This document shows positions 5,614 through 45,282 of a DNA stretch of 64,000 nt, in pieces; position 1 is the stretch's first letter; the number at the start of each line of letters is the position of its first letter. The notes beneath the pieces are model-generated. The model was not told the origin of the DNA. It saw only the letters and a list, made by a program, of their open reading frames with translations, and made no database searches. The stretch is taken from positions 106,888,001 through 106,952,000 of the forward strand of contig OZ260664.1 of assembly GCA_965285935.1 (NCBI GenBank), given 5' to 3'. The DNA is from Ophelia neglecta. Lineage: Eukaryota. The position numbers were made by a program, and so were the translations under genes.

Positions 5614-5689
5614 GTAAGATACAAGTTGTAACACGTGTCTTCTGATATCAAGAAATCTTACATATGGCAGCAGGAGCTGTCACGTATAA

Positions 5690-13904: not shown

Positions 13905-14605
13905 TGGAGAGATGCCTGTAGCGCCAGAGGTAGGAGATATACCTGTAGCGGCAGAACTAGGAAGGATATTTGTACCGCTAGAAGTAGGAGGGATACCTGT
14001 AGCGCCAGAGGTAGGAGAGATACCTGTAGCGCTACAAGTAGAAGGGATACCTTTAGCGCTAGAAGTAGGGAGGGATACATGTAGCGCCATTAGTAGGAAG
14101 GATACCTGTAGCGCTAGAAGTAGGGGGGATACCTGTAGCTATAGAAATAGGAGGGATACCTGTAGCTATAGAAATAGGAGGGATAACTGTAGCGATAGAA
14201 ATAGGAGGGATACCTGTAGCGCCAGCAGTGGGAGGGATACCGGTAGCGCCATTAGTAGGAGGGATACCTGTAGCGCTTGAATTAGAAGGGATACATGTAG
14301 CGCCAGAAGTGGAAGGGATACCAGTAGGAGGGATACCTGTAGCGCCAGAAGTGGGAGGGATACCTGTAGCGCCATTAGTAGGAGGGATACCTGTAGCGCC
14401 AGAAGTGGGAGGGATACCTGTAGCGCCATTAGTAGGAGGGATACCTGTAGCGCTTGAAGTAGAAGGGATACCTGTAGCGCCAGAGGTAGTGTAGCGCCAG
14501 AAGTGGATGGGATACCTGTAGCATCAGAAGTAGAAGGGAAAACCTGTAGCGATAGAAGTGGGAGGGATAATTTTAGTGCCAGAAGAACGAAGGATACCTA
14601 TGGCC
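13905..14605. repeat. 27-bp minisatellite (GGGATACCTGTAGCGCCAGAAGTAGGA), ~25 units
   Basis: Direct reading; source of the spurious GIPVAPEVG ORFs. Confidence 0.96.
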
Positions 14606-16329
14606 AGAAGAAGGAGGAATGCGACCATGCACAGGTTTTTCTTAAACATGACCAGATAATACTATTATGATAATGTAGTTATAGTGTCAACTGCGACATT
14701 CAATATTAAACTGTGTTAAGTGCAGAGGCATGAGTGTCTATATATACATACTCATGCAACTCCTGTCATGTGCAGAAATATCGATTTCTTTGGCTTTTTC
14801 TGTGAAGTGTGGGATTGTGGCCACTATCCCAAAAAGCCAAAGGGTGCTTTAAACTGTTTGGTGCTTATTTTTGATTCTGCAGTAATTTTATCTACTATTT
14901 TCTGATAATATTGTCCCTTATCCTACGGAATTTCAGCTAATCGATACTCCGATATAGTCAACCAGCAGTTGAGGGGAGTTTTCCAGCGCTGCATACAAAT
15001 ACTCAATATAGGTGAACAGAAAATGTGGTGCACGATTCACATCTGTGTATAATCATTATATCTGAGTTGTACGCTGCGTGAGCTATTTTTCAATTTTTTT
15101 ATTAAAGGTAATTGAGGTCTCGAACTGAAACATTATATAAAATATACTGTTTAATAAGAAAAAAACCTCCAAAAATGGGACCATACTATTTTTTTTTCTT
15201 CCATTGAGTTCACATACTTCTGTCAGTGCCAAATAAGTAAACTAATGTCAGAGAAGGGGTGTTTGTGAACTTTAACCCGTACTTAATAGGAATAATGAGT
15301 ATTATCCAACGATAATGAGTAACAGTATAAACTGATTTGTTTTTTTTAATCCTCCAGATTGAGCCGCCCCTATTCCTTCAAATCCTGCAAACGTCCCTAC
15401 TATTTTTGCATATTATACATATTCAATCGTAATGCGAGCTCATTTTTAATGACCGCGATAAAAACAAATTAAATATGCCGCTCTGCTGTTTCCGTAAACA
15501 TGTCAAACGATTATATTTCAATCTGGTAGTGTTTGATGGTCATTAGTAGCCCAGTCTGTATAAGTCCTGACTGCTACACTACAGTGTTATGGGTAAGTGT
15601 CAGAGTTATTTGTAACCCTAACCCGTACATAGTTTGGATTATTGTTAGGGTAAATGACAGGGTTAGGTTTAACTGTAAACCTAACCCGTAGATAGTATGA
15701 TAGCCCAGTTTCTATGTCCGTATAAACCAGTGACGTCAAGACACCACGCCAACTCGAACAAGCTCAGTTTTTTACTGAGCTTTGAGATTGGTGATAATAA
15801 CAGCCCTTGCCAATCCACCTGCTCCGGATGTATTCAGTCAAATTTGAAAGTCAAATAGAGGAAAACTGTCAAAACCTCATAAAGCGCCATGGTCTGTATG
15901 CGGTAAGCCTTGAAACCCAGAAGGAGCCCTTATTAGATGACAGAACCCTTCAACGTTTATCAATTGCAACTCAATTGACACAAAGCGACCGGACGTCAGT
16001 AGCCATAGGGCGTCCTTTGATTGGCATCTCTCATAAAAGATACTGTTAATAACATTGTTTTGTCCTGCCATATCGTATAATGTTAATCAACTAATTAATG
16101 CCTGCAGCATTAAACAACCCAGTGTAACTTGTTCGCGCTGGGCAACTAGCCGTGTATAGGAAGCCGTTTCCGGTCTTCTGGATCCATGTCAAGGACACTC
16201 AACAAGGCTTTGTGTTATTTGAGACTCGACCCGTTCAGTGGCTAATAGCCGGCCTGTTTATGAGAGTTATGGTCTTGATAAGGCTCTATGCAGGTGGCAC
16301 AAAGCGCGCCTTAAAGCAAATTACCCAGG

Positions 16330-17070
16330 ACTTGAGTGCAAGCGACGACTGCTCATATTTCATCATTTTCCTACCTTGACTGCTAACTCATTTGTCTTAT
16401 GTTCTGACTCGCATCTTTCCAAACTCTAGACTGCTTCTCCTTGCAAGTGATATCAAGTTTGTGTTTTCATTTTTGACTATTTGTACTTTAATGTATTTAC
16501 TGTTTGGCAGCCGGGGATCGATTTTATGTGGAGTGTGGGGCTGTGGCTGCTGATTCCTGAGCTGGAGATTGGTTTATTGCTGTATGAAGGCTGTGGCTGC
16601 TGATTCCTGAGCTGGGGATTGTTTTTATTAGGAGTGTGGGCCTGTGGCTGCTGGTTCCTGAGCTGGGGATTGTTTTTATGTGGAGTGTGGGCCTGTGGCT
16701 GCTGGTTCCTGAGCTGGGGATTGATTTTATGTGCAGTGTGGGCCTGTGGCTGCTGGTTCCTGAGCTGGGGATTGTTTTTATGTGGAGTGTGGGCCTGTGG
16801 CTGCTGGTTCCTGAGCTGGGGATTGATTTTATGTGCAGTGTGGGCCTGTGGCTGCTGGTTCCTGAGCTGGGGATTGTTTTTATGTGGAGTGTGGGCCTGT
16901 GGCTGCTGGTTCCTGAGCTGGGGATTGATTTTATGAGTAGTGTGGGCCTGTGGCTGCTGGTTCCTGATGACGTCACACTGATTTAATGGACTATTCTTGC
17001 TAATGATTTGGCTTTATCTGCCGGGTATCCACTCCCGTTTTGTCAGCCGGGTATCCAGTCCCGTTTTTAC
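16330..17070 (+). mobile_element. Copy of an old interspersed repeat (core TTGCAAGTGATATCA) containing an internally amplified 51-bp array
   Basis: Homologous segments at ~28020-28200 (-), ~28210-28400 (-), ~30860-31075 (+) and ~37340-37530 (+). Confidence 0.7.
16520..16966. repeat. 51-bp minisatellite, ~9 units, alternating variants forming a 102-bp dimer
   Basis: attgtttttatgtggag and attgattttatgtgcag units alternate. Confidence 0.96.
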
Positions 17071-20274: not shown

Positions 20275-20745
20275 ATTTACATCATAAATGGCGGTTTATT
20301 AATATTTATCCATATGACATCTACCATTGACGGCTGCTTACAAAGCTCTATCACATTTGCTTTATCATTGATAACTGATTACAAAACTCTATCCATGTAA
20401 ATTCTACCATTGATCCCTGATTACAAAGCTCTATCCATTTGGTTTTTATCATAAATGGATGTTTACAAAGCTCTATCCATGTATCTTTTACAATTGATGG
20501 CTGTTTACAAAGCTCTGTCCATGAGACATCTACCATTGATGTCTGTTTACAATGCTCTATCCATGTGGTTTTTATCATTGACGGCTGTTTACAATGCTCT
20601 ATCCATGTATCTTTTACAATTGATGGCTGTTTACATAGCTACATTCATGTGACATCTACCATTGCTGGTTGATGTTTACAAAGCACTACCCACGTGACTT
20701 TTATCATTGACGGCTGTTTACAAAGGTCTACCCATTTGATTTATA
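20275..20745. repeat. Diverged 42-bp minisatellite (ccatgtgacatctaccattgacggctgtttacaaagctctat), ~11 units
   Basis: Direct reading. Confidence 0.92.
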
Positions 20746-21469
20746 ACAATGATGGCCCTTTTCAGACTCCGTCGGGTCGCTAGGAGTATTGCCCATCATT
20801 CTGGCCATTCTTCTAAAATCGTCCGCTAAGACCGGAATCGACATGATCGCATAATAATATTTCTGGTGTCCAGTGGCGCGGAAAGTTAGGACCGGTTGGC
20901 TACCTCTTGGAGCAGTAAAGGCTTTATTTCGCATCCGGTGGACAATATGGGTTGTAACTGGAAAGCTGTCTCCTTAAACAGAATAATTACAATATGGAGA
21001 CCAGCAGATGTGTTATGGGCATCTGGGTGCAATTTCATCGTAACTAAGAAACGGTCTTCATAAATGTGAGTCATTGTTAATAAAGAACAAATTTATCATC
21101 TTGAAACGATTGAATTAGGACCATGAAGTTTTGATTGGAAGCATGTCTACTAAATACTTTATGTTTGCCAAGACACGAAATCAAAGCACTCATTTCGATC
21201 TACCAATGAGTATTTACATTTGCTTACGGTACGCGCACGAGATGCTAAAAGAAAAAACCTGACAAAATTCATAAACAAATAAGAATAACTCCTTTTGGTA
21301 ACACACATACTTAGTAACACTAGGTATGTGTAACTAGTGCCGTGTTGCTGTACTGACGACGGCAATATTATATGTAAAAGCAATGTGCTGTGGTAATGAC
21401 GAACATAGGGGTCTTTATAAAGAATATGTCGAAGGAAAAGTTTCTGATCTTTATGACAATCACCACGTG

Positions 21470-21885
21470 TTAGAACTACTAAATTAAATTTTTAGTGTAG
21501 AGGAAATCGTGAGTGCAATCGATTATTTAAAAGCAGATAAAGGAGTAACGGAACTATATCCCCTGAGCTAATTAAACTTACTTATAGGAATACCTCATAT
21601 GAAATATTTATTTCATTATATAATCGTAATGGAGTCATTCCCTGATCGCCTTGGAGAAGGCTTACGAATACCTGTCCCGAAGCCAGGTAATAGAAATAAT
21701 GTCCTAAACAACCGATCTATCACTATCGTACCTGTGATCGAAAAGATTTTTGGAGTTTTGCTTAGTATTAGATTCAGATTCGTGAACGAGGCCTATAGCA
21801 GAGTCGAATTTAACAACGGATGGTTCTTGAAAAACTCCCAAACCCAAGAAAATATGTATATATTGGCTGCGCCTCTGACTTAGAC
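21470..21885 (+). mobile_element. Decayed non-LTR retrotransposon RT N-terminal fragment
   Basis: EEIVSAIDYLKADKG...FPDRLGEGLRIPVPKPG...RSITIVPVIEKIF...GWFLKNSQTQENMYIL resembles LINE ORF2 motifs (IPK..., YR.I.L, GF...T.D); interrupted by stops and frameshifts. Confidence 0.75.
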
Positions 21886-22656
21886 TTATGAGATTAACCG
21901 ATAAAAAAATTGCCAAAAAAGTGTATAATTGCTTGTATGAACTGCATAGCAACAACACACACAGTGGAACGTTTGGTTGATTATAAACAAATACTTAAAA
22001 ATAGAGCACCAGAATATTTTAAGTTTTTTCTTTCTAATACCATGTTATGTATGACGCCGGATATTTTAGTCCCTCACTTCATACGCTATTTCCACTTGTT
22101 TCTATTCAGACATCCAGGAGACTATCATTGAGCAGCGGCCACGATGTAGAGCCACTCAGAACGCGTTAACGTACCTGCAGCCTACCCTATGACGTAGTTC
22201 TAGCCTTCAATTTGAAATAGTTCTAGCCTACCTATGACGCAGTTACAGCCGACTGCTAAGTAGGTGAAGCCTTCATATAAACTAACGCTGAGGAGTTCCT
22301 ATGTAGTGATCCGAAGTGATGGCCCTGGATCCCCCCTGATACCATACCATGCGGAAACCCCTATCCCCGGGGATCGAACCCCAGCCCCCCGGGATAACCA
22401 CCCGATCACACAGAGCCTTCATCGCTTTCTTTCCCGGATGCTTCTGGGCGATACTTTCAATTCTTAACGCTATGACTATTGGTGAGTATAAAGAAACATT
22501 CAGTATATATCCCAAAACCTTTCTAATTCAAATATTGTTGCGCTTGAGTCTTTCAAAATGATATGCTTTAAAAAATGGACATGGGGTGCACCATGCCAGA
22601 AAGTCATTTAAAAGTTATTATGTCCTCTTATTTCTTACCATCTCTATGATTTCCAG

Positions 22657-22820
22657 GTTCCCGTGCTGAGTGCGCCTTCCCTGAATACCTACAGCCATCT
22701 GCAGAGGGCGCCACTCTCTGGCAGGGCCCCACAGCGGCCCCTCTCGCAGACCAGGAGAGACACTGGGTGACTCAGACTAAGTATCTCCACTCCTCGCGCG
22801 GCTGGGAGTCCCAACTGGAG
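22657..22820 (+). CDS. Exon A1 (phase 1-0): SRAECAFPEYLQ...GWESQLE
   Basis: atttccag| acceptor, GAG|gtaagt donor, 164 nt open. Confidence 0.9.
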
Positions 22821-25800
22821 GTAAGTGGCCATTTCACCCTAAAACTCTTCCTTTATTAAATAAGAAACAGTCTCTTCAGGTTACCTTGGGGTTCTCGGCA
22901 ATTGGTCTTAGAGGTTTGTGGGCGCCAAGTTACCCAAACATAAAGATGAACATCGTAAGAGCATCTTATTGTTACACTTCGAATGTAGCTAGATCAGTCC
23001 CATCAATAATGATGATGCAGGTGACACTCATCGATTATCTCATCTTATTATTGGTCGTGGAATGCATTGCTAATATACTGATGTGCCGTGTCTAAACATT
23101 AAAAAATGTCTATCCAACTCAAAACAGAGAACGGCAAAATACCACTTTTAAGTTCTTTAAGTCTCTATATCAGTTATAGGGATGTTTGGTTTTTTTCGAT
23201 GCCAACTTTAACGTTTTCCGTCTCATTTCAATCCAATGGATCGTTTAAACCTAGTAAACACTGCATATAGATTATAAATTCATTAGTTTTAATCTCTCTG
23301 GTGTGTATTTCTATTAAATAACATTCGTATTGAATAGTACTTATTTTCATTGTATATTGCATTACAAAGCCATTCTTTTTTATGTATTAGTATAGCTCTT
23401 ATGAGAGATGCGATGTATAAAGACATTAACGAAGTTTTTTAATGATTTATACGATGTATTAGATAACAGTCCGGAGAGACCAGGTCGTCGCTAAGATCAA
23501 GTTCGAGGCCCAATGTCTAGAGTCAGGCGGAGGTAATGTGCCTTGTTATCATAGAGAGGTAGTATACAGAAAGACCTGCATCAAACAGGATGGCGTGGAC
23601 AAGTACATTGTCAAAAGTCTGGACCACGGGTGAGTGTATGGCTCAGAGAATTCAAAAACCACATTAAACCCTCTAAGCTAGATATATGGAAACAGAAATT
23701 CAACACCAATTTTGCTTCATATAGTCTACATACAGTGAAACCTGTGTTTGTTGTCACCTGTGTAATAAGGTCACCAGCCCACTAAGGTCACTAAATGATA
23801 TCCCAATCCCATTAAAGCCCGTGTTAACTGACCTGCTATTAAGGCCATGTGGACAGTTTTTCCAATCCCTTGACTGACCTGATTAGACAGGTTTCACTGT
23901 ATATTCGTGACATCAATGTATTATTAAAGCATTCATGATGTATTAATGCAAAAACGTTATGACACATGAAGGAAGATATTATTATGAATTCGATATATGT
24001 CAAACGACCTCTGATCGAACGACAATACCCATACTTAATTCGTTCTTTTCGATACAGTTTGACCCAAAAAAACATGCAAAAACCCAGCTTGCCAATGTCC
24101 ATTAACTGGGAGAATGCCGCCTACTATATTATATCTCATTGTTATGTTATAGAGAGACTGAATACCATTGTATGAAATTTGTGAAGAGAAATAAAAATTT
24201 GATTCAGATATGGACAGGTTAGTCCCACTCGTACTCGAATTAAGCCCATATAATAGACATTATTTTATTCAATTTTTAGATGGATTACAGGCCATGCATG
24301 GTCATTTCCTCCGCTAACATTATATTTGGTTGTCAACTTGATGTATTGTTCTTGTCAGTTATTCCATTGTTATCATGTTTCCAGGACGTAGTGTTCATGA
24401 CATTGACCAAGGAGAGCACCTGTGTTTGGACAGCGCACTTCAGCGGGAGGAGTGGCCATGGATAGGTACGCGCAAAATAAACTCTTTATTACATCAGCTC
24501 ACTTAACGAAACCTTGCCCCTGCCTTTGACCATGGCTCTAACTTTGACTCCCAATGCTACGGTCTCAGGGGAGTAATTTTCTTTGTCCGTTGCTCTGGGC
24601 CTTACACAAAATGCCCGGAAAATAAAGATGGCCATCGATAAGTATCGGTTATTATATGACAATGCCATGATATCCTTCAAAAGGGTTTTCACACCGTAGT
24701 GGATTTTACTTTTGTCTTATTAGCCCCTGTCCAGGAGGAATGGCACCTCTGTCCGATCATTGGAGGATTCGACTTCTGGGCCCATATTTCCCAACCCAAA
24801 GAGGTATATCGTTATCCTGATTGATGTATCCGACTTATAATTTTGAGTTAGTGGGCTGGTAATTCCAGATGCTAACGGGCCGATTTTATGAATCTTTATA
24901 TTATTGATTTTGCGTGTCTGCCTGGTATCCATTCACGATCTTTCGCTGTTCAATCGGTGATTGTGTAAATTTCTTATTGATCTTTTGATTAAACATCAGT
25001 ACAAAGTATTATACTACCATGTCATGATTGATATCATGCAGACAGTCTTTACCTTTGTGACGTATTGTGACAAGTCCCATTTACGAAATAAGGAATGATA
25101 ATCAAGTTTTGTCTTGTCACAGCGCGTGTGTCCGGAGCAGTGGCGCCCATCTCGGTTTGAGACCGAGTGTATTATGGGAGAGGGAATGGAATTTGAGTTC
25201 CCGGACACATCATGTAGTCCGCTCCAGAATCAGAGTCTAGGTCAGTACCAACTACTGAAATTTATTATACCCAAGCCATTTGCCTGCTTATGGTCGTATT
25301 TAAAGTAAAGCTCGAAAGAAATCACATGTATTAAAATGGGTATACGCTGCAGCAGAAAGTGCTTTTAAAACAGACAATTTACCACATGACCAATTCACTG
25401 TATTGATTATATACTAACGAGTAACATTGCAAGTCTGTGCCTATGTGGGAACTGTTTTAATATTCTCGTTCACTTCAGATTTACGCGTGCAGTGTTGGGC
25501 AAGTTGGGAGGAGGAGGGTTTTCTTTTCATAGTGGCAGGCGAGGGGAAATTGATGCCACAATTTGTTCTGGTCAGTTAGTTTCTTACTTCAAAATACCAC
25601 AAATAATAGCAAATGTTCCAAAACCTCAGGAGATTTATGACTTGACACTATAATAACATACTAAAGACGGAATTGCCCTGATGAATCAGATTAATTTATG
25701 ACATTACTGGCATTTCATGTCAGTTTATTATTCCATTGGAACATTTGGTTCATGGTCATCGGGTCACAGGGTTGAGTCTCACTGTTAGTTTTTTTCATGC

Positions 25801-28800
25801 TGGTATTAGCCAAAGAATTAAAAAGGAAGTGACCATCACATGTGACTTAGATACGCGTATTGATATTTGAACGTGTTTTTCTTGAAATTCCTTGCCTATT
25901 GCGGTATATTTTTATTTGGCCAAAACCCATAAACTGTCATATATAACATACCTATATATAACTTACCATTCCAGCGGTTTCCGACGAACTGGCTGAGTCA
26001 GGGCGAGCCCTTTACGGTCCACTGGTACTTCAGCCCCATTGCACCCACTACCAGGAGGGGGACCCCTACCGGCAGGATTAACATACAAATATTAGAGATG
26101 GAAACCAGACAAAGCGGTATGCCATAGTTCGTATCTTGTTATTAGCGCAGAAATACATTGATCACAGGCAGAACTCGTGTCTTTATTCAATCACCAAAGC
26201 TGTCGAAAATTTACAGTTTTGGAAGGGCGCGGCGCTTTCTAGGTCTATGAATGATTGATGGAACATATTTGCATGACTTGTGCTCATTGCGTTGGAACAT
26301 GTACACGTCTCCCCAACACTATTTTTTTAATTTGATCATGTTTGATATGGCCGTTGTATAGTAAAGAAAGAATGGCTAGCTTCGGTCATGTACATGGGAT
26401 TTGGCCACGTCACGGTTGCATGATTCACGGGACTACTTGTACGCATTGACCGGCATTATTTCTTTTAACATTTAATGAATATAGTTATAAGGTGTGCAGT
26501 GGCATAAATCATTCCGGTCCAATTTTGACCAGGGATAGTTATATGGATTATCTCCTTTTGTGGACCATTTTTTATTTTTATGTACAAGGGATGTTTCTGT
26601 CTAAGGCCAAGGGTTGCGCTGTATGCTTTATTCCTTTTGTGCTCTGATCAAGACCAAATTGTGTTTTGCCTGAATAGAACTAAGTATGCTGGAACTTTTG
26701 GCCGGCCATTATTTAGACCTATTGAAAATAACACCATGTGCGTGGTGTAAAAACAGATATTATAAAATGCCCACGGATTCTGGCAAATGTCTCATGAGTG
26801 GCCCTCGGGATTCAGTTCTCCTCACAGATTACACTATGTGTGTATTTCTATCACGCGTCTTGTTTATTTCCTCAGAACCCGGTATTTGCTTTGACGAGTC
26901 CCCTCTCTGTATCCAGTACGCCAGAGAGGGACGATGTACCAACAGTGCCTTATACAAATATGCAAACTATTGCAAACGATCATGTGGTCTATGTGGTAAG
27001 ATCGATATTAGTTTAAAATTTCCCTCTTCTTGGCCAGCAGTAAAAAATAGTTTTTTGTTAGCTATATATACAGTGGTGTTTTAACACAGTTACGATTGTC
27101 GGAAGCAACTATTTTCATTTTCAATTTTTTTATATCATTTCTACAATATATTTTTTTCCTTAGACTCGTTGCCTTCTCCTCGCCCTGAGTGTCGGTTCCC
27201 TAGTAGTTACAGGGGGGACTGGGTGCTCTTCGAGGACGACCGCAGTGAACAGGTACCTGTTATAATACATCATTATACTATAAACATTTCATCCTGCATT
27301 CAGGTTAATAGCTGACCTTTAAAGAGCTTTTGCTCTCACTAATGATATGAAACTTTTTATTTCAATGAAATCAGTCGTCCAAATATTTTAGTATTTAATT
27401 GTTAACGGAAGTAGCTAGATTTCCAGAAACAGTTACAGGTGTGGTCATTTGCCCACTAGATGTTTATGTGTTATTGTTTTCTTACAGGTGACTGTGTCAA
27501 GCGGTCACATCACCTTCTCCTCTCTCGGGGAGTTCACGTGTAAAAGTCGGCACTGGGCCAACAATCATTACAAACTGCTTTCACGCTACTCCAATGGATG
27601 GTGAGTCATCAGATATATACTTATTTATTGCTTATTATAATAAAGAACGTTTAAAGCAATAAAAATCAAACGTTATGGTCTAGATTCTAGCAGTTATAAT
27701 ATGAAATTAGGCAAAAGCGATGTCAATTGTATACCGCACAATCCAAGGTTTTGTTTCAAAAGTATGTTATTCGCTTGTAACCGGTTTTATTCACATCTCT
27801 TAATCCTCTCAAGCAACTACAAAATGACATTAGTGTAAGCGCTAGTGATAACCAGACTCAAACAGCGTAATCCGCGAGTACATTAATAACAAGTCATACC
27901 AGAACATCTAGACAGTGGGACGTGTGTGTCTGATTGAAAAGTATAGAACAAAAGGACACATACAAACTAAGCTTCTTTTTAATGATTAATGGCTTTCCAT
28001 TGAATCGGTTCGAAATTATCCAGGATCGTTAGTTGCAGGCCTACAGACATCAAACTCCAGCTTCCAACTGTATACTAACTTGTTTTGAAGTTAATGTAAA
28101 CAAACATTAAAACTGATATCACTTGCGATAAAAAGCAGGCCACGTGTCAGAGCACAAGAAAATAGTTTTTCCAAATGGCAAATAAACAAATTGGCTTATT
28201 TAGGGATGAATTTTGATCAGTCTAAATTCATTAGAAAGCAGCAGCCGCAGTTCCACTAATGTCTTTCCCCAGTTCTCTAACTTCAATTAAAAGTATTACT
28301 AAATTAATGTTTGTTATAAGCGTAAAATTAACATCACTTGCAACAAGAAATATTCAACAGGGCTTCACGATTCGAGTCAGAGACCAGAGCACTGAGAGAA
28401 TTGCGTGATTTTGTGTTTTCGTCATTGCCGTGTTCATTGCGTAGCTAATATAGCAATTACATCGAGTTATCAACTTCCCTTTATTTGTAGTTGTACGCTT
28501 ATATATTTTTTGCTTCATATAACTGTTTGTTTTCAGTCGACCACGGTATACGTGTATGAACTTTGAGCAGAATGCAGACGACGCCCTTCAATTTCAATTA
28601 TGTATGTTGAACGTACTTTTAATAACAAAACAATAACTTCAAAAAACAGAGTATATTAGTAGTATAATACAAAGTGAGAGGCTATTTTAATCATTTTTCC
28701 TAGTATGCACATAAGACGTATACGATATAACATACCAAACGGAATGTGCTTAGAACCAATGATATATTCTATTATTCAAGTGTGCACTTTTAAAGCAAGG

Positions 28801-31800
28801 AGCTTAATTTATTAATATAATTTCATGTAGTTATTTGTGATAGGTTTTTGTACCCATAAAGATAATAGTTTTACCTCTTATCAATGTCCAAAACACTGTT
28901 TGACCTGTTCAACTGGAGTCCGTTCTGTTAGCCATAACACTAATCCATATATCCATGTACACACGTTTCTTCGCCTAATATACTTTACCTAAATAAATTC
29001 TTATTTATGACAGCTAAAAGCGAGCGTTCTGACCAGTCGTTCAAGCTTTGCCAGTTTCAGGACGACCCCTTGCCGCTAGGGGGCAGGATACGTAGTGCTC
29101 AATTAAAAACACTTCTCCGTGAGTTTTTGTCTAATCCATTATATTTTCCAACTATAGTTAATCAAATCAGACACGTACAGTGTTATTTTTAGACAGCTTC
29201 CATATTTCTAAAAGCTTCTCCTAGGTCAACTCAAAGCGGTAAGTCACGTATGAAGCGGTTTCTAAAATATAAATAACCGATATTTCCGTCAAAACAAACG
29301 TCGGCCAAAGTTAATGCTTTATGCCCCTAGTGTCATTTGAAGGCCAGTTCCATTATCATAAGTCATACGTAAATTTGCTTTTCTCTGTGAACCACTCATA
29401 AATGAGTCCCGGGAAAGTAATTTCCTGCTCCTATTTCTATGCAGCACTTAAGGCAAGGCTACACGTCATCATAATGAATATTAACCCCCCGGCCTTTCGG
29501 GTCTATATGACGATAAGTGGCCAGTTTGCATACGAATACATTTCCTATAATATATGCCACATGTGGATATTTACTGAGACAAGTATTCATTACTACGGCA
29601 GACCCAGCATTGTGTTCCGACCCTATAGATCATCTTCGTATTAAGACTTTGTATAGACCCCCGACTGTTTTATTGCCAATGTTTTAGTAATAAGCTATTA
29701 GAAAGACCCCATGCGTCCTCCCTATTGAAGCCAAAAATGTAAATGCAAAATTCCGATCGGGGATACATCATCCTTTTTTGTCCATAAATAATTTTAGACG
29801 CCAAACACACTGTGGATTTTCCAGGACTTTTTTTCCTTTTTAGCATTAACCTAAGCCATAACACTAACTTACCTCTTTTATAACATTACCATCATTAGCC
29901 TCGTCCAAGACGAAAGGGGACACCTGTGGCCTCAACGGATTGGTCCGGGTTAGTACCGTGCCTGACGCTAGAGGTCACTTCTGCCAGGGAACGCTCTCTG
30001 ATTGGAACCAGCACGCATGCGGGAGTGAGTCTCGATTACAACTTCGACTAAGAGGCAGCTGTACTGGTTCCAGAGTGGGAAGGCTAGACAAAGGTATGTA
30101 GAAAATTACATAGATGCAATATTCATATTGCATAGAGTTCAATTCTCAGCAAAAGAATTAATTAAATTGCCGTGTGTCCTTATCTTAACTATCATGTGGT
30201 TATAGTGCCTGCGGAGTTTTGCCTTATGCATATCAATGTGGTAATTGTGGCCTTGGGTACCTAAATTTGGTATATGTGGATACGTAATCTTTTCACTTAA
30301 GATTTATCTTTCATAGTTCACATTTTTAGTTGGCTTACTAACGAGTTTAGACTTACTAGTTTTGTATGATTGATTGATTGATTATTATAGTGTATGGTCT
30401 TCTTCGCAGAGTACGTATGTGTGGCGTATGTGGGCGTGGAAACCGGGTACAGCCTGCTTATAACCAAGTCAGACGTCGGTGCTACCTACCAAAAATATAC
30501 CTGCTGGGTAAGATAATTTCCTTTTTAAAAATATACCTGCTAGGTAAGTTAACTTCCTCAACAAAAGTATACATGTGTGCGGCCATCTCCTTACCAGTTT
30601 TCAATTATAGCTTAAGTACATCTCCAAACCATAAACAAATTGGGCAAATTAATCTCTGCACCTAAATTGTCTTCTATTTTAGTTACTAGCTTTTGCGTGT
30701 CATTCCAATTTTAAGCCACTTTTCTTTTTTGCTTATAAAGATTTTTCGTTTACTTTATCAAGAAGATTTAATACCATTTTCATGTTTAGCATTCATTGAC
30801 CTTTTTTCACTCATCCTGTGGCTAAATATTACGGGAGAGGCTATACATTCTAGCCTCTTTTGGGGCATATAATATATTTGTCCTTCTTTAATTACTGACT
30901 AGTTTGTTTTGTTATTTGACTCGCATCATTAAAACTGTTGACTACTTCTAATTGCAAGTGATATCAAATGTATTCGTTTGGAATGTATTATTTCGTTACA
31001 TGTATATTTACTGTCAAGAGCCGGTTATTGATATTAATGTGCTGTGACTTCTGGTTCCTGTCTATTTCGTAATGACCAATAATATTTGTTGTATAAGGTG
31101 ATAAAGACCTATGCTGAGAGGATGTACTACAAACCTTGGCGGGAAGCTTACATTCTAGAGAAGGCTAACTGTGGAACCGAGGGAGACTTTGACCCCAACT
31201 CACTCCTGGCTGCTAGCATGGCGCTGCAGACGGAAAGTGGTAGGCTGTTTTCTTGGTTATAAAACAATGCCTTTTTTTGAAAATCAACGTTTTTGAACAG
31301 ATGTTTCTACCATTTAAAAAGAAGCAAACGTCGGCCAAAGTGGAATTCGCTTTATAAGAGAAGAATAGGCAAAATGCTACGATTAAATTGTTTCAAATAA
31401 ATGAATCTGTGGTATGTTAATTCAACACTGTTTCCAGATACAGTCCATCGGCCGTGCGGACAGGACTCGGGGACACGTCTGCCTTCTAAGCTCCACCAGC
31501 CCGTGTCGGATGAGGCCGAGGATAATGACGACTCTAGTCACAAGGTACATAATACACCCTGTCCATATCTCCAAACACATACATCGCCATGTAGCTTTGT
31601 CTTAAAGCCCACAGCAGGCTACCTATATTCCAACGAGTTGAAAGAACTATAACCTAAATGTAATAAAAATGACATATGCGATGTTATCACATATTATTTT
31701 TCTTTTCGCAGGAGAGAGAGGTGGGTCACCTCCAAGATGTAATGTACAATGTGAAAGATGCCAGTTACCATGGGAGCGGGACAGACCGAGTCTCCCAGAC

Positions 31801-31861
31801 TTTATTAAATACTGCAACAACCCTGGTGATCATGGAAGTCCTAAAGGCCTACCTGGTATAG
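22657..31861 (+). CDS. Multi-exon gene (18 coding exons found, 5' end unresolved): extracellular Cys-rich protein, module 1 - ShK domain - module 2 - acidic linker - GPI-like tail, ~697 aa from the first secure exon
   Basis: All 17 introns are GT-AG and all phases chain without a stop (2093 nt = 2 + 697 codons including TAG). Spliced protein: GSRAECAFPEYLQ...KTCIKQ...YHCMKF...HLCPIIGG...VQCWASW...PGICFDESPLCIQYAREGRCTNSALYKYANYCKRSCGLC...ECRFPSSYRGDW...YTCMNF...YVCVAY...YTCW...HGSGTDRVSQTLLNTATTLVIMEVLKAYLV*. From memory the modules resemble DUF7042/7043-type Cys-rich repeats; this needs an HMM check. Confidence 0.92.
23463..23629 (+). CDS. Exon A2 (0-2): ITVRRDQ...KTCIKQDGVDKYIVKSLDHG
   Basis: gtattag| acceptor, CGG|gtgagt donor, 167 nt. 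Confidence 0.88.
23733..23899. mobile_element. Tc1/mariner-pogo-type MITE
   Basis: TIR CAGTGAAACCTGT / ACAGGTTTCACTG with TA on both sides. Confidence 0.88.
24153..24217 (+). CDS. Exon A3 (2-1): ETEYHCMKFVKRNKNLIQIWT
   Basis: gttatag| acceptor, CAG|gttagt donor, 65 nt; counterpart of 28537-28601. Confidence 0.88.
24385..24465 (+). CDS. Exon A4 (1-1): RSVHDIDQGEHLCLDSALQREEWPWI
   Basis: tttccag| acceptor, TAG|gtacgc donor, 81 nt. Confidence 0.87.
   Translation, partial: DVVFMTLTKESTCVWTAHFSGRSGHG
24724..24803 (+). CDS. Exon A5 (1-0): PVQEEWHLCPIIGGFDFWAHISQPKE
   Basis: tcttattag| acceptor, GAG|gtatat donor, 80 nt. Confidence 0.87.
25123..25240 (+). CDS. Exon A6 (0-1): RVCPEQW...SCSPLQNQSL
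   Basis: ttgtcacag| acceptor, TAG|gtcagt donor, 118 nt. Confidence 0.88.
25479..25570 (+). CDS. Exon A7 (1-0): LRVQCWASWEEEG...PQFVL
   Basis: cacttcag| acceptor, CTG|gtcagt donor, 92 nt. Confidence 0.87.
25975..26116 (+). CDS. Exon A8 (0-1): RFPTNW...METRQS
   Basis: cattccag| acceptor, GCG|gtatgc donor, 142 nt. Confidence 0.87.
26876..26995 (+). CDS. ShK (ShKT) domain exon (1-1): PGICFDESPLCIQYAREGRCTNSALYKYANYCKRSCGLC
   Basis: Six Cys with a C-x-D start and a C-x-x-S-C-x-x-C end, typical of ShKT; ttcctcag| acceptor, GTG|gtaaga donor, 120 nt. Confidence 0.93.
27164..27252 (+). CDS. Exon B1 (1-0): SLPSPRPECRFPSSYRGDWVLFEDDRSEQ
   Basis: ttccttag| acceptor, CAG|gtacct donor, 89 nt. Confidence 0.9.
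27488..27600 (+). CDS. Exon B2 (0-2): VTVSSG...FTCKSRHW...YSNG
   Basis: tcttacag| acceptor, ATG|gtgagt donor, 113 nt. Confidence 0.9.
28537..28601 (+). CDS. Exon B3 (2-1): RPRYTCMNFEQNADDALQFQL
   Basis: gttttcag| acceptor, TAT|gtatgt donor, 65 nt. Confidence 0.88.
29014..29118 (+). CDS. Exon B4 (1-1): KSERSDQSFKLCQFQDD...KTLL
   Basis: tatgacag| acceptor, TCC|gtgagt donor, 105 nt. Confidence 0.87.
29899..30093 (+). CDS. Exon B5 (1-1): SSKTKGDTCGLNG...GSCTGSRVGRLDK
   Basis: atcattag| acceptor, AAG|gtatgt donor, 195 nt. Confidence 0.88.
30410..30507 (+). CDS. Exon B6 (1-0): YVCVAYVG...QKYTCW
   Basis: cttcgcag| acceptor, TGG|gtaaga donor, 98 nt. Confidence 0.88.
31098..31239 (+). CDS. Exon B7 (0-1): VIKTYAERMYYKPW...ANCG...LQTES
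   Basis: gtataag| (AAG) acceptor, GTG|gtaggc donor, 142 nt (same length as A8). Confidence 0.83.
31438..31544 (+). CDS. Linker exon (1-0): TVHRPCGQD...DEAEDNDDSSHK
   Basis: tttccag| acceptor, AAG|gtacat donor, 107 nt. Confidence 0.85.
31712..31861 (+). CDS. Terminal coding exon with GPI-signal-like tail: EREVG...HGSGTDRVSQTLLNTATTLVIMEVLKAYLV*
   Basis: cttttcgcag| acceptor; phase-0 frame ends at TAG 31859-31861; small residues (GSG), a spacer, then a hydrophobic C-terminus. Confidence 0.83.
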   Translation, partial: EREVGHLQDVMYNVKDASYHGSGTDRVSQTLLNTATTLVIMEVLKAYLV

Positions 31862-34800
31862 AACTCGATATGGCCGATATATAAATGGTTGATCTTTAAG
31901 AACGGTCCTAAATAACGGTACAGGTGAAGGACCATTTCCACTAGTGTGCCGTGTGGATGGCGAATGTTTGTCTTGAATCTGTCAGTGGGTGACACTTGTG
32001 CTTCTGGTACTTTGATGGATAACGGATGTGAAATATTGACATCGCATTGGGTATGAAGAGTTTCAGGGTCCACCCAATGTAATCTACAAGACCCGTCGTA
32101 TGACTCTAGTGGATACTCCTTCAACTAACGGGTCCGACCACATTCACTTTAGTGGTAACATGTCACCATTTCTGCTGTACTAATGACAAATTGGAGTAGC
32201 TTGATATATGCGGATGTGTTCCAGAAGGAGGTATATGATGAAGAGTGGACACGTCTAGCCTACTGCTTCTTTTACTCGTTCTGCTAAATCAAATTTATCA
32301 AACTGATAACAACCTGTTTGAGGTTTCCTCGCTTCATTGATTGTTCAACACGGGCTTGTTGATGATAATGTAACATCGATCAACACTCATGACGTCACTA
32401 GACATGACGGAAACTGAATGGTGATTATTCAATACTTAGTGGAAGTCTCGAAGATGCTTGTCAGTGATAATTTACACTAATGTTCTGTTTTAGTAATAAA
32501 AATCATAAAACGGTCGCGTAAAGGCGCCTGCCAGTACTTCATGATTATCTCGTATAATTAGATGGGGCGTGATTGCACAAGATAAAAAACACGCTGACTC
32601 TAGCGAGTTGAGGCAGGTGTTAACGCCACACCTTAGTGCCAGATAACTGCTGTGTAGTAGTCGAGGGGGCTATTCATTGCTCGTAAATGTCGTCTATCTC
32701 AGTTCCCAGTGCTTGCTGATGGCCACGGAGACACGTAAAGTTAGTAAACGACCCTCAAGGCTATAGAGAATGGGCTGGTTTACCCCCATCGTGGGTATTT
32801 TGATGGGAGATTTGAGTACAAACACATACAAATTGCACATCAGTAAACATTCTCATAAACATGAACAGGATAAACCCAGAGCAGGGGAATACTTCGTGGT
32901 CGCTATACCATTAGGATGTCGGAGTGAATCGCCGGCACTTCGCTAATTTGACTAGGAGCCCCATAACAGCCAATTTTCACCCAGTTACCAGCCCCAAGCA
33001 CCCAACCTGAATTATTAAAGATTCCAGTTGAAGAGTGGGTTCTATCCATGGTCATCAATTGTAGCCAGCCTGTTGGGAGACGCTGAGTGGTCGTCAAGCG
33101 ACAGTTTTGTGTCCTCTGATGGGTTTAAGCGGCTACTGGAGAAGTAAAGGGCAGTTAGAGTAGCGGTAAAGTACGGGAACGCCATGGAAGTGTTGACTTA
33201 TGTATACAGGTCTATCATACGGACTACTATATGGTTAAGTGGCTTAAAGGCAGGCTCGGGACAGTCCCCTTCTCTTTTTTGGATTGTTGTTCGTCAGGCC
33301 ACCTATTGACGGACAAGATATGAGCAATGCCCAAGTGTCTATAATCAATATGACCGGGTTCAGTGGAACGTTGTGACATATAATGTGGCACGAGATGAGC
33401 GATTAGCGATGGACAGCTATCTCTGCCTGGTCTGAAGGCTGATGTGTAATTCTCTCATTCACAATGAGGAATTGTGTTTAAAAGTTGAGGAATAACTTTA
33501 TTGTAGACAAAGCCTGTTTGGCTACAACCACAACCAACAGAAAAAAAGATCAATCACGCTTTTCCAGCATATATTTATACATGGCAGCCACTAAGTGTGC
33601 TTTATAGAATTCTATGATTGTAAGTGTTATTAATTATTAAGACCATGCTGGAAAATAATGTAGACGATCATATTGTGTTGGTGCCGGTGTCAAATGGACA
33701 ATCGAACCTTGATTGATAAAAAGTCTTGGCTGTGCATTTGGTTGTCACTCCCTCTATGGGAAGAATACTGAATATTTCTTGATTCTTTTTTTTGTTAGAC
33801 GAAATTCGTGTATTATAATCGCCTGCTGCTGCCTTTAACATATGTATGTGACTATTTATGTTCGTGAAGTATGTGCGTGGATGTAACGAATCAATTAGTT
33901 ATTGCTAATCCTTTATTTCCCCTTTTAAAAACGTTTGCCTTAGGATAATGACGTTACTCATATCCCATGGACGCATTTCGCTAGAGACGGAAATAACAGA
34001 CAGGGCATCTAAGGCCGGCCAAAGGATATATTTGTGCACCTATAACACATCAAGACAACTCGGCTGCCTATTGCTATCGCGCCGCTTTAAGCAGTTTTCA
34101 GGCACCGGAAAAGTATGCATCTCAGATTCCGAGGTGACCCATCTATCTACGTGTCATTACAGGCAAAACTATAATCGCAAAAAGGGAGACATGAAAACTA
34201 GGACACCATGGCTAATACCCCCATGTCAGTTATATTGACGATTGATTCTCGCCATGGTTTTATAATTATGCCATGGCAGTTTTATACATAATTAACAGGT
34301 TTAGTATTTGCTTTATTGTGAATTTCAGCCAAGAATAATTTCATTTTGTAGTCATGGTATACTAAAGCCACCTGTTTTGTTTTAAAGAAAGGAGACGGTC
34401 ACTGGGGTCTTAACCAACATAGTAGTCCAGTTATTTTGCTGTACATTTAATTTTGCGCCAGGGAATTTCTTTGGCATGTGCGTCCGGTTTATTATGAAGC
34501 TTTTATCATAAAGAAAAATTCTAAAAATATTATTGACCTTTATTGAAAGTCACGGAAAAAAGTGATTGTCCTTTTGCAGGATAACATTTAAAAGAAAAAT
34601 ACAGTTAAAGGTCCTGCCAAGGGGTGGACAAGAGAACTCAAATGATGTAGCAATACCTGTCTCAATGGTTAATATAGCGATCCAATTTTGATTACGTCTA
34701 GCTTGATTGATTTTGGAAAAGAAGTATATATGAACAAAGAACAATCATTCCGTATTAAACCAAAGATGTATCCTCATATAAAACGTATAAGACATATTTT

Positions 34801-41079: not shown

Positions 41080-41975
41080 AACTAAACTCTATATATTTGT
41101 ACTAAACTCTATCTAGAAAGTCCTTGCCAGTGATGGAGCCTCCGTAACTCCACCTAAAATAGCCACCGCCTGTCTTGAAGCCTACCAAACTCTAGAAATG
41201 CCGCCGCATATATTGAAACCTACCAGACTCTTTCACCCTACATAGAAAGTCCACCGCTTGCCGTGAAGTATCCTAAACTCTATCTAGAAAGCCCACCGCT
41301 TGCGGTGAAGTATCCGGAACTCTTATCTAGAAAGCCTACCGCTTGCGGTGAAGTATCCTAAACTCTATCTAGAAAGCGCCGGCCGGCCTAAAAGTCTACC
41401 AAACTCTTATCTAGAAAGCCTACCGCTTGTGGTGAAGTATCCTAAATTCTATCTAGAAAGTCCACCGCTTGCCGTGAAGTATCCTAAACTCTATCTAGAA
41501 AGCCACCGCTTGCGGTGAAGTATCCTAAATTCTATCTAATGAGCCACCGCTTGCAGTGAAGTATCCTAAACTCTATCTAGAATGCCACCGCTTGCGGTGA
41601 AGTATCCTAAATTCTATCTAATGAGCCACCGCTTGCCGTGAAGTATCCTAAACTCTATCTAGAAAGCTACCGCTTGCGGTGAAGTATCCTAAATTCTATC
41701 TAATGAGCCACCGCTTGCAGTGAAGTATCCTAAACTCTATCTAGAAAGCCACCGCTTGCGGTGAAGTATCCTAAATTCTATCTAGAAAGTCCACCGCTTG
41801 CCGTGAAGTATCCTAAACTCTATCTAGAAAGCCACCGCTTGCGGTGAAGTATCCTAAATTCTATCTAATGAGCCACCGCTTGCAGTGAAGTATCCTAATG
41901 AACTCTATCTATCGGTGAAGTCTACCATACTCGTTCCTGTAATGCTACTGCCTACTTTAAAGTCTACCAAATTGT
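41080..41975. repeat. 41/42-bp minisatellite with an internal CACCGC-TT-GCGGTG hairpin, degenerate at both ends
   Basis: Unit aaactctatctagaaagccaccgcttgcggtgaagtatcct. Confidence 0.95.
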
Positions 41976-44331: not shown

Positions 44332-45282
44332 TAAGGTGTAAGCGTTCTGTAGCCGCGTATAATCTGATCGCTGGGGGTACTGAAGTGGTCCTGCCACCAC
44401 ATGCCGAAGCTATATTTGGTCCATTTTAAACACCATTTTGTTTTCTGAAGTGTTTGCACATTTGAAAGGCAGGAATATAAAAAAATAGACACGTTCCATG
44501 TCTTTTTTAACAATTATATGACCATTTTTTGCCAACTCATCAACATAATACCAGAAGACTTTGAAAAAAGTAATTAATGAAGACAAAGGGGGTTGTTGAA
44601 TCTCCCAGAGCTTATCTGATCTTTATCAATGAGAATTATTGTCAAATAGTAATAAATTAATGGTAACAAATCAAAAAGCTGGCAATGTACTAAGACAACA
44701 ATTTAAATTCACCAATGGGAAAAAAACCACGACAACCACATTAAACCACTAAAGAAATATACTCCCCATCAGAACCTATTTGGTAGGAACTACTTCTGCC
44801 GCTCATCAATTATCATTCGCTGCAAATCTTAATGTGCTTCGTCCAGAGACAAATACGAATCATGGCCGAATTTGATGACAAATTGCCATTCCGCCCCTAA
44901 ACTTTTTTCAACTTATTTTAATCGATCCTCAATTTAACTTTCATTCACTACGGGTGGAGATGCTTATTTTATCTTCCTAAAACGGGTTCTATTGAAGAAA
45001 AGGGCGGGGAAGTCTTATTGGAAGTTTTTATGTATTCGTGGTAGGATCATCAAGGATTAAATCATTTTTTTTAATCATAGTTTTGGCTGACACCAAAGAC
45101 ATGAATGTGAGGGAGTTAGGTCGTGGAAGACATCGGGAGAGGTTAAGTTTGTGTTGTTTGATGATTGAATGAACCCAGAAAGGAGAGATAGGCGCCAAGT
45201 TAAACGCCTACTTATATTAGATCAATACTGTATGTGGTCAGGGTGATAGCACGGCATGCTTCAGTAGACAGGTTATTAAACA

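What the first reader, a model, noticed from the sequence alone, without database searches (positions are those of the whole stretch)
22657..31861. Gene missed by the ORF track: cell-surface Cys-rich protein with an ShK domain between two duplicated modules
Seen: 18 small exons chain in phase into a ~697-aa protein with 30 Cys, arranged as module 1, ShK, module 2, acidic linker and hydrophobic tail. Known: ShKT domains occur in K+ channel toxins and as accessory domains (e.g. MMP23, astacins, tyrosinases). Inference: this is a probably GPI-anchored, apparently non-enzymatic receptor-like or matrix protein. I do not recognise the architecture as a characterised family; the modules recall DUF7042/7043-type domains of unknown function.
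Basis: partly seen in the sequence, partly recalled or inferred. Interest (0 to 1): 0.75.

Follow-up and report, generated by a model that had tools for sequence, protein, structure and literature searches.

The report
Surface-anchored four-barrel ShK protein gene
This is a real, intact, 19-exon animal gene, probably from an annelid, for a cell-surface protein with four small barrel-shaped domains around a toxin-like module; it belongs to a large worm and mollusc family that is catalogued in databases but has no known function.

Summary
The gene is real. It missed a first exon at 22349-22481 with the ATG and a signal-peptide-like stretch, so the full model has 19 exons, 741 aa and 31 Cys. The architecture is not unique. 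A Capitella protein matches end to end (34% over 617 aa, E 3e-122), and a profile search gives 561 hits; the nearest Atlas clusters are mostly molluscan. The order is signal, DUF7043/7044 barrel, DUF7042/7045 barrel, ShK, the same barrel pair again, stalk, GPI-like tail. The duplication is supported by profile alignment (E 1.5e-17) and by 8 of 9 matching intron positions and phases. AlphaFold on the Capitella orthologue gives four compact lipocalin-like barrels (pLDDT 84.5, pTM 0.81). The six ShK cysteines are kept in 99 of 102 relatives, but the channel-blocking Lys is not. Best guess (0.45): a GPI-tethered, non-enzymatic recognition or adhesion protein. Lipid capture and K+-channel modulation are weaker rivals. 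Verdict: a new member of a database-known, uncharacterised family.

The parts
22349..22481 (+).
   Evidence: first in-frame ATG after a stop, donor GTGAGT, KD peak about 2.0; an N-terminal hydrophobic stretch in 81 of 102 homologues
22657..22820 (+). Exon 1, barrel A1 (DUF7043/7044 type), aa 45-99
23463..23629 (+). Exon 2, barrel A1, aa 100-154
24153..24217 (+). Exon 3 (65 nt), barrel A1, aa 155-176
   Evidence: Pfam DUF7043 E 4.5e-4, below the cut-off on its own; family HMM E 5.8e-5
24385..24465 (+). Exon 4, end of barrel A1, aa 177-203
24724..24803 (+). Exon 5, barrel B1 (DUF7042/7045 type), aa 204-230
   Evidence: DUF7042 on homologues
25123..25240 (+). Exon 6, barrel B1 with the conserved R-x-E-S-E-C motif, aa 231-269
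   Evidence: family HMM E 1.8e-11; R241 in 83 of 102 and E243 in 96 of 102
25479..25570 (+). Exon 7, barrel B1, aa 270-300
25975..26116 (+). Exon 8 (142 nt), end of barrel B1, aa 301-347
26876..26995 (+). Exon 9, ShK domain alone, in a symmetric phase 1-1 exon, aa 348-387
   Evidence: Pfam ShK E 1.2e-7; six Cys kept in 99 of 102 homologues
27164..27252 (+). Exon 10, barrel A2 start with the calycin-type G-x-W motif (G405, W407), aa 388-417
   Evidence: weak DUF7044/7043 hits; G 93% and W 96% in the family
27488..27600 (+). Exon 11, barrel A2, aa 418-454
28537..28601 (+). Exon 12 (65 nt, twin of exon 3), barrel A2; the N-G-C-x-P-R motif spans exons 11/12; aa 455-476
29014..29118 (+). Exon 13, end of barrel A2, aa 477-511
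29899..30093 (+). Exon 14 (195 nt, twin of exons 5+6), barrel B2, aa 512-576
30410..30507 (+). Exon 15, barrel B2, aa 577-609; its donor is duplicated by a 36-nt tandem repeat
31098..31239 (+). Exon 16 (142 nt, twin of exon 8), end of barrel B2, aa 610-656
31438..31544 (+). Exon 17, last conserved Cys and unconserved polar/acidic stalk, aa 657-692
   Evidence: the matching stretch is low-confidence coil in the orthologue model
31712..31861 (+). Exon 18, stalk end, candidate omega sites (aa 713, 714, 720, 725), hydrophobic tail ending at the stop codon

Best explanation
A GPI-tethered, non-enzymatic cell-surface recognition or adhesion protein. The signal peptide takes it into the ER, and the C-terminal hydrophobic tail is exchanged for a GPI anchor (inferred from sequence pattern). 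A roughly 50-residue unstructured stalk holds out a disulfide-locked head of four compact lipocalin-like beta-barrels, made by duplication of a two-barrel cassette, with an ShK module inserted at the join (gene anatomy shown; fold predicted on an orthologue). The head binds extracellular protein partners (matrix proteins, receptors or ligands on other cells) on barrel surfaces and loops (inferred). The ShK module is a structural or hinge element, not a pore blocker (inferred). Many divergent paralogues give different specificities (inferred).
For: Gene model and ends. Hydrophobic tail with no cytoplasmic domain in 91 of 102 homologues, 88 also with an omega-like small-residue motif (a loose pattern), against 130 of 2040 shuffles. 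About 30 Cys, most of them at 79-100% conservation. No conserved His, HExxH (3 of 102) or GxSxG (7 of 102). The orthologue model is all-beta with four barrels, pLDDT 84.5, pTM 0.81; module 1 alone gives pLDDT 92.5, pTM 0.90, so the barrels pack in a defined way. The best fold match for two barrels is Tp0751: Z 9.3, rmsd 2.5, 96 aligned for A2 and Z 8.6, rmsd 3.2, 96 aligned for B1. PMC5040251 (passages) describes Tp0751 as a compact lipocalin with no hydrophobic pocket that binds matrix proteins. The inward-alternating strand positions are often bulky. The ShK loop between Cys3 and Cys4 varies from 6 to 12 residues, K-aromatic occurs in only 8 of 102, and Lys at the toxin position in 3 of 102. 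The window protein has Leu373 where an anemone toxin has its S-x-K-Y lysine (Ser20, Lys22 and Tyr23 per PMC6409789 passages). The family is large and divergent, at about 20-35% identity.
Against: No partner, expression or localisation data. The fold comes from the Capitella orthologue (34% identical), not from the window protein, and no coordinates were available, so cavities were not measured. Z of 8-9 is only just above the 7-8 background the tool reports, and a shared fold shows no function; most lipocalin-fold neighbours bind small hydrophobic ligands. The window protein's own tail is weak (13-mer KD 1.75, 19-mer 1.44, with one Glu and one Lys), and no trained GPI predictor was run. PMC7521688 (search listing only) describes Tp0751 as 'reportedly' a surface adhesin, so that role appears contested. 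Strongly conserved polar motifs (R241/E243, R301, N453-R458) could be a ligand site or an active site as easily as an interface.
Confidence: 0.45

Rival explanations
1. Surface-tethered trap or carrier for hydrophobic ligands, working like APCDD1 or lipocalins: one or more barrels bind a lipid, a lipidated morphogen such as Wnt, or a small hydrophobic signal at the cell surface.
For: All four domains match calycin-like barrels (lipocalins, FABPs, avidin; Z 5-8). The G-x-W calycin motif is 93%/96% conserved in barrel A2 (motif per PMC5040251). Mouse APCDD1 appears for barrel B2 at Z 6.2, rmsd 3.8, 119 aligned. APCDD1 is also an internally duplicated, disulfide-bonded surface protein in which only one barrel holds lipid (PMC10193966, parts 1-3 of 7 read).
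Against: The APCDD1 match is rank 28, among unrelated barrels, and covers one barrel only. The family profile finds no APCDD1 or lipocalin sequence in the PDB at E<=10 (13 hits, 12 of them ShK-fold peptides). The barrels are small (about 100 aligned residues), and the best match is a pocket-less one.
Confidence: 0.25
2. Shed or secreted structural protein of matrix, mucus, cuticle or tube: the anchor is absent or cleaved and the Cys-rich head cross-links or binds matrix.
For: Weak tail in the window protein; Cys-rich; many paralogues; read-through or alternative splicing near exons 15-17 could drop the tail (alternative donor at 30543 stops at aa 612).
Against: The tail is kept in 91 of 102 homologues and is longer, transmembrane-like, in one clade. 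All the Cys look committed to folded domains in the model (inferred from conservation). There are no low-complexity structural repeats.
Confidence: 0.12
3. Endogenous tethered K+-channel modulator: the GPI anchor presents the ShK module to Kv channels in the same membrane, as MMP23's ShK domain modulates Kv1 channels and as GPI-linked toxin-like proteins (Lynx1, Sleepless/Quiver; recalled, no call) act on other channels.
For: The ShK is among the best-conserved parts in near orthologues (30-52% identity against 19-48% for the barrels; 70-78% in the five ShK hits). The window protein has K375-Y376, shared with the Capitella orthologue. MMP23 modulates Kv1 without the canonical dyad (PMC6409789 passages).
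Against: The Lys is replaced by His, Gln or Glu in other near relatives, and the K-aromatic pair is in 8 of 102. The module sits mid-chain between two large folded modules. Dyad-bearing ShK peptides can be inactive. The high ShK identity partly reflects 6 Cys in 40 residues, and the hits were selected on that exon.
Confidence: 0.1
4. Ecto-enzyme using a barrel as its active site, as some calycin-fold cyclases and lyases do.
For: Fold neighbours include barrel enzymes such as OlmO, hydroxynitrile lyase and PAD. Conserved E243, R241, R301 and D354.
Against: No conserved His, no metal motif and no nucleophile motif; low-Z neighbours only.
Confidence: 0.05
5. Not expressed as modelled (pseudogene or mis-joined exons).
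For: No transcript data; this protein was not found by a single-exon search for longer proteins (weak evidence).
Against: No stop or frameshift in 2226 nt, 18 of 18 GT-AG introns, and family HMM E 7.9e-129.
Confidence: 0.03

Closest known systems
Lophotrochozoan DUF7043/DUF7042/ShK family (Capitella CAPTEDRAFT_227924 and _207027, Paralvinella LSH36_3g31031, Lamellibrachia LSAT2_005133; ESM Atlas cluster 'ShKT domain-containing protein', 70 members)
   Same: Same domain order, Cys pattern, length near 700 aa, signal and tail. The window protein falls in a 99-supported set with the four named annelid proteins and P0010 (FastTree).
   Different: Only 30-40% identity, so it is a distinct member; the other three named annelid entries lack stretches that the window model and CAPTEDRAFT_227924 share, probably incomplete gene models. 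None has a known function.
Arthropod DUF7042/7043/7044/7045 proteins
   Same: The same barrel types; Atlas feature score 0.85 and TM 0.71 over module 2.
   Different: The cluster labels list no ShK; whether they have a degenerate one was not tested.
Calycin/lipocalin-like barrels, nearest Treponema Tp0751 (PDB 5jk2)
   Same: Compact antiparallel barrel, Z 8.6-9.3 over 96 residues; G-x-W start motif in barrel A2.
   Different: Four barrels in one disulfide-bonded animal protein; 10-14% identity; no sequence-level link; pocket status unknown.
APCDD1 (vertebrate Wnt inhibitor)
   Same: Internally duplicated, disulfide-bonded beta-barrel ectodomain at the cell surface; Z 6.2 to barrel B2.
   Different: Two barrels and a transmembrane helix with a cytoplasmic tail (PMC10193966) against four barrels, ShK and a GPI-like end; no sequence match.
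ShK-domain proteins (anemone Kv toxins; MMP23, astacins, tyrosinases, CRISPs)
   Same: Six-Cys ShK module above the Pfam cut-off; best PDB sequence match is an ShK module from a putative metalloproteinase (2mcr, E 0.002).
   Different: No protease, tyrosinase or CAP domain in the 105 related proteins scanned; not a free short peptide; toxin-position Lys absent.

Membership tests
DUF7043/DUF7042-ShK lophotrochozoan family | Full-length homology with the same domain order | tested here: met
   blastp to P0007 E 3e-122 over aa 50-663; family HMM E 7.9e-129 over aa 35-720
DUF7043/DUF7042-ShK lophotrochozoan family | Two DUF7043-type and two DUF7042-type domains | tested here: met
   DUF7043 twice in 30 of 30 homologues and present in 68 of 69 more; DUF7042 in 35 of those 69; module 1 vs module 2 hhalign P 99.1, E 1.5e-17 on the window's coordinates. 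The window protein was scanned only exon by exon.
ShK (ShKT) domain, PF01549 | Six-Cys motif above the gathering score | tested here: met
   32.6 bits against 20.9, E 1.2e-7
ShK-type K+ channel toxins | Lys-Tyr dyad in the S-x-K-Y position | tested here: not met
   Leu373-Tyr374 align to the toxin's K-Y; a K375-Y376 pair lies two residues on and is not conserved
ShK-type K+ channel toxins | Short free secreted peptide | tested here: not met
   Internal module of a 741-aa protein with no flanking dibasic sites seen
ShK-type K+ channel toxins | Block of Kv currents | not testable with these tools
   Needs electrophysiology
GPI-anchored proteins | N-terminal signal, omega site, polar spacer, terminal hydrophobic stretch with no cytoplasmic tail | tested here: met
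   By simple hydropathy and pattern rules only: window KD 1.96 (N-terminus) and 1.75 (C-terminus, 0 residues after); family 91 of 102 tails against 130 of 2040 shuffles
GPI-anchored proteins | Trained predictor call or PI-PLC release | not testable with these tools
   No SignalP, NetGPI or PredGPI available
Calycin/lipocalin superfamily | Antiparallel beta-barrel of about eight strands | tested here: met
   On the orthologue model: eight strands counted per domain from DSSP; Z 7-9 to lipocalin-like barrels
Calycin/lipocalin superfamily | SCR1 G-x-W motif packed on the SCR3 Arg | tested here: inconclusive
   G-x-W conserved in A2 only; A1 has Trp without Gly; B1 has G-G-F/Y. Packing could not be checked without coordinates.
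Calycin/lipocalin superfamily | Hydrophobic ligand pocket | not testable with these tools
   Model coordinates not available for cavity analysis
APCDD1 family | Sequence homology to the APCDD1 barrel | tested here: not met
   The family profile against PDB sequences gave 13 hits at E<=10, none APCDD1, although mouse APCDD1 is in the PDB
APCDD1 family | Structural identity of the paired barrels | tested here: inconclusive
   Z 6.2, rmsd 3.8, 119 aligned, one barrel, tied with unrelated barrels
ShK-bearing enzymes (astacin, MMP23, tyrosinase) | Catalytic domain | tested here: not met
   No such Pfam family in 19 exons or 105 related proteins; no HExxH in the window protein

The most novel reading that the evidence does not exclude
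An undescribed class of GPI-tethered receptors in annelids and molluscs in which lipocalin-like barrels capture a hydrophobic signal (a lipid or a lipidated morphogen) and a built-in ShK module passes it to a K+ channel or co-receptor in the same membrane: an endogenous ligand-sensing 'tethered toxin', expanded into many paralogues.
Probability: 0.07. Interest if true: 0.85.

Novelty: new member of a known kind. Interest (0 to 1): 0.38.

Why it matters
The single gene is ordinary for its lineage. The interest lies in the family: hundreds of divergent surface proteins in annelids and molluscs, with arthropod relatives, that have only DUF labels and no paper in the library searched. This work adds a complete gene model where several public annelid models look incomplete, a predicted fold for the DUF7042-7045 domains (compact lipocalin-like barrels, four per protein), a clean exon record of how the protein was built (an eight-exon phase 1-1 cassette duplicated, with a phase 1-1 ShK exon between), and a probable GPI anchor. 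That makes function directly testable in laboratory annelids. If the barrels bind lipid or the ShK module acts on channels, it would be a new kind of invertebrate surface receptor; present evidence does not show either.

Tried and rejected
Pairwise module 1 vs module 2 on the window protein: not significant; needed profiles. Single-exon homologue search with exon 2: 5 candidates, none at E<=1. Pfam on single exons: hits on only 3 of 19. Foldseek of the whole orthologue model against the PDB and viral predicted structures, and of module 1 against the PDB: only diffuse beta-rich matches, query TM at most 0.14 (whole) and 0.24 (module); rejected. No solved chain aligned over both barrels of a module (aligned lengths 77-121), and APCDD1 was not among the 50 rows shown for module 1; neither shows a new fold. 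Atlas feature search of module 2 leaving out the DUF and ShK families: no usable hit. Complex prediction of the orthologue's ShK module against its two barrel modules: no answer, score 0.03, alignment not used; no evidence either way. First tree run timed out; FastTree used instead, which has only local support values and no taxon labels for 98 of 103 rows. No paralogue elsewhere in the window (family HMM on six frames). No tRNA or Rfam match; no Pfam match in 51 other stop-to-stop frames. Literature: DUF7042/7043/7044 and Pfam numbers, 0 papers; recalled PANTHER and InterPro identifiers and one Capitella id, 0; three other annelid ids, 0 occurrences in the 16 of 18 papers listed; ShK + lipocalin + barrel + GPI + lophotrochozoan (4 of 5 terms), 0; APCDD1 + ShK, 7 unrelated; ShKT + GPI + mollusc + annelid, 20 of 28 listed, none on this family by title or abstract start. 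Supplementary files were not searched, and gene lists there could mention the family. Left open: names and taxa of the unnamed homologues and of cluster members; hits 151-561, which were not shown; the metagenome and viral contig collections, which were not searched (unlikely to matter for an intron-rich animal gene); and a fold or whole-length database search of the window's own spliced protein, for which the Capitella orthologue stood in.


Full report
1. Observation. The window is animal genomic DNA: GC 33-55% per kb, many minisatellites, no tRNA or Rfam match. Joined by coordinates they give 697 aa with 30 Cys and no internal stop. The exon at 22657 opens with an acceptor in phase 1, so it cannot be the first. 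An exon at 22349-22481 has the first in-frame ATG after a stop, a 22-residue hydrophobic stretch and a GTGAGT donor in phase 1. The full model is 19 exons, 2226 nt, 741 aa, 31 Cys, with 18 of 18 GT-AG introns of 167-936 nt. The longest exon is 195 nt, which explains why an ORF track misses the gene.

2. Independent support. Searching with the ShK exon found a Paralvinella protein that matches the model over aa 187-562 at 40% (E 1e-97). That led to a Lamellibrachia protein and two Capitella proteins. CAPTEDRAFT_227924 (698 aa) aligns over aa 50-663 at 34%, E 3e-122. A profile of these four against 1.84 billion representatives gave 561 hits at E<=1e-3, of which 150 were shown. I aligned 102 proteins, mostly 530-800 aa: 98 unnamed hits plus the four named ones, leaving out fragments and the internally repeated P0009. 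Their HMM matches the window model over aa 35-720 at E 7.9e-129. Fourteen of 18 junctions align without gaps in at least 5 of 8 near homologues; four lie in gappy loops. Exons 0, 17 and 18 have no meaningful identity to homologues and rest on splice signals and family pattern. In a FastTree tree the window protein groups with the four named annelid proteins and P0010 (support 99), so the source is probably an annelid (inference).

3. Architecture. Pfam finds ShK on exon 9 (E 1.2e-7) and DUF7043/7044 weakly on exons 3 and 10. In whole homologues DUF7043 matches twice in 30 of 30 and occurs in 68 of 69 more, with DUF7044 in 55, DUF7042 in 35, ShK in 14 and DUF7045 in 6. ShK passes E<=0.01 in only 10 of the 30 and 14 of the 69, yet its six cysteines are kept in 99 of 102: a constant but sequence-degenerate part of the family. 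The order is signal, A1 (DUF7043/7044 type), B1 (DUF7042/7045 type), ShK, A2, B2, stalk, tail. The ESM Atlas holds a 70-member cluster of this kind, commonest in Mollusca (score 0.97), and more distant arthropod DUF7042-7045 clusters (0.85; module-2 TM 0.71).

4. The duplication. Module 1 and module 2 of the window protein are not similar pairwise (E 0.12). As profiles they align at probability 98-99%, E 2.9e-14 and 1.5e-17; A1-A2 and B1-B2 each align at about E 1e-9, A-B pairs only at E 1e-4 to 0.1. The gene structure agrees independently: 8 of 9 intron positions bounding or within module 1 have a same-phase intron within 2 residues in module 2, and the ninth (phase 0, aa 230) has no twin. 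The phase series alone would match by chance in 147 of 200,000 draws. Twin exons have equal or near-equal sizes (65/65, 142/142, 80+118/195, 92/98). Each module and the ShK exon is bounded by phase 1 introns, the pattern expected from exon shuffling (established knowledge). Inference: an eight-exon two-barrel cassette was duplicated, with a symmetric ShK exon between the copies.

5. Fold. The Capitella orthologue was folded in place of the window protein. AlphaFold2 with 102 sequences gave pLDDT 84.5 and pTM 0.81, an almost all-beta head with low-confidence ends; module 1 alone gave 92.5 and 0.90. Foldseek gave nothing meaningful. VIA-align matched single domains to compact calycin-like barrels: Tp0751 at Z 9.3, rmsd 2.5, 96 aligned for A2 and Z 8.6, rmsd 3.2, 96 aligned for B1; Bacteroides lipocalin-like proteins at Z 7.2-7.9 for A1; several barrels at Z 7.3-7.8 for B2, with APCDD1 at 6.2. 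The tool warns that Z under 8 may be only a common arrangement. A2 starts with G-x-W (93%, 96%), the calycin SCR1 motif as described for Tp0751, which has no hydrophobic pocket and binds matrix proteins (PMC5040251, passages). APCDD1 has two barrels, one of which holds a fatty acid, and binds WNT7A (PMC10193966, parts 1-3 of 7). No sequence link to lipocalins or APCDD1 was found. Cavities could not be measured.

6. Topology and chemistry. 81 of 102 homologues have an N-terminal hydrophobic stretch, 91 a terminal hydrophobic stretch with at most 12 residues after it (130 of 2040 in shuffles), and 73 both. Several rows are N-terminally incomplete. This is the pattern of GPI signals; the window's tail is on the weak side, with candidate omega sites at 713, 714, 720 and 725. 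Sixteen homologues picked by a Gln...Cys end motif fall in one branch and have longer hydrophobic ends, perhaps a transmembrane variant. No His, metal or nucleophile motif is conserved; the conserved polar residues include R167, Q173, R241, E243, R301, D354, N453 and R458. In the ShK module Leu373 aligns with the S-x-K-Y lysine of an anemone toxin (dyad definition from PMC6409789 and PMC5793123, passages). K375-Y376 lies two residues on and is shared with CAPTEDRAFT_227924, but the Lys is His, Gln or Glu in other near relatives; K-aromatic occurs in 8 of 102. Those papers also caution that the dyad is neither necessary (MMP23) nor sufficient.

7. Mechanism. Shown: gene structure, domain order, duplication, family. 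Predicted on an orthologue: four packed barrels. Inferred: a GPI anchor and a non-enzymatic role. I rank surface recognition or adhesion through barrel surfaces first (0.45), hydrophobic-ligand capture second (0.25), then shed matrix protein (0.12), tethered K+-channel modulator (0.10), enzyme (0.05) and non-expressed model (0.03). The ranking of the first two rests on thin evidence: small barrels, a pocket-less best match, and high divergence among paralogues.

8. Novelty. Relatives with the same architecture are already in NCBI, UniRef, Pfam and the Atlas under automatic names, so this is a new member of a catalogued family. Six literature searches found no paper on it (open-access full texts only, supplements not searched). 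A specialist would not be very surprised by the gene, but the fold assignment, the exon record and the size of the family make it a reasonable target. Interest 0.38.

Noticed in passing
window 30491-30562: A 36-nt tandem duplication spans the donor of exon 15 and creates a second, strong-looking donor at 30543; using it puts a stop after residue 611, cutting barrel B2 and the anchor.
   Followed up: partly
homologues P0028, P0040, P0068, P0074, P0077, P0079, P0086, P0092, P0094-P0096, P0100, P0106, P0109, P0122, P0154: Sixteen homologues picked by a Gln...Cys C-terminal motif lie in one branch; most have a longer hydrophobic segment and a short Cys-containing end, possibly a transmembrane or palmitoylated variant of the anchor.
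   Followed up: partly
homologue P0009: A 912-aa protein with two A-B-ShK units and no signal or tail; tandem paralogues fused by the gene caller, or a rearranged member.
   Followed up: no
window 27164-27252 (aa 404-406): An RGD tripeptide overlaps the G-x-W motif at the start of barrel A2; RGD occurs somewhere in 19 of 102 homologues. Probably incidental.
   Followed up: partly
window 45204-46030 (+), 59558-59857 (-), 21572-21880 (+): Frames that by eye resemble decayed LINE-type reverse-transcriptase fragments (recalled resemblance); no Pfam hit at E<=0.01.
   Followed up: partly
window 48231-51116, 13906-14617, 5688-6407, 41243-41898, 16509-16967, 20307-20756, 55404-55860: Minisatellite arrays with units of 25-62 nt; the largest has about 65 copies of a 46-nt unit. 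They account for many of the long spurious ORFs.
   Followed up: no
window 16366-16456, 30878-30972, 28114-28143, 28323-28360: Copies of a short dispersed repeat (76-80% alike), three of them inside introns of the gene, two inverted relative to the third. Other dispersed pairs: 1984-2145/3829-3996 (90%) and 16940-17067/37390-37517 (78%).
   Followed up: no
window 22276; 32495 and 33014: A TATA-like hexamer about 70 nt upstream of the ATG, and the first polyadenylation-type hexamers about 630 and 1150 nt past the stop; unverified.
   Followed up: no
whole window: No other protein-coding gene was identified in the remaining 54 kb, but only 51 stop-to-stop frames were scanned and no splice-aware search was run outside 22000-32500.
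   Followed up: partly
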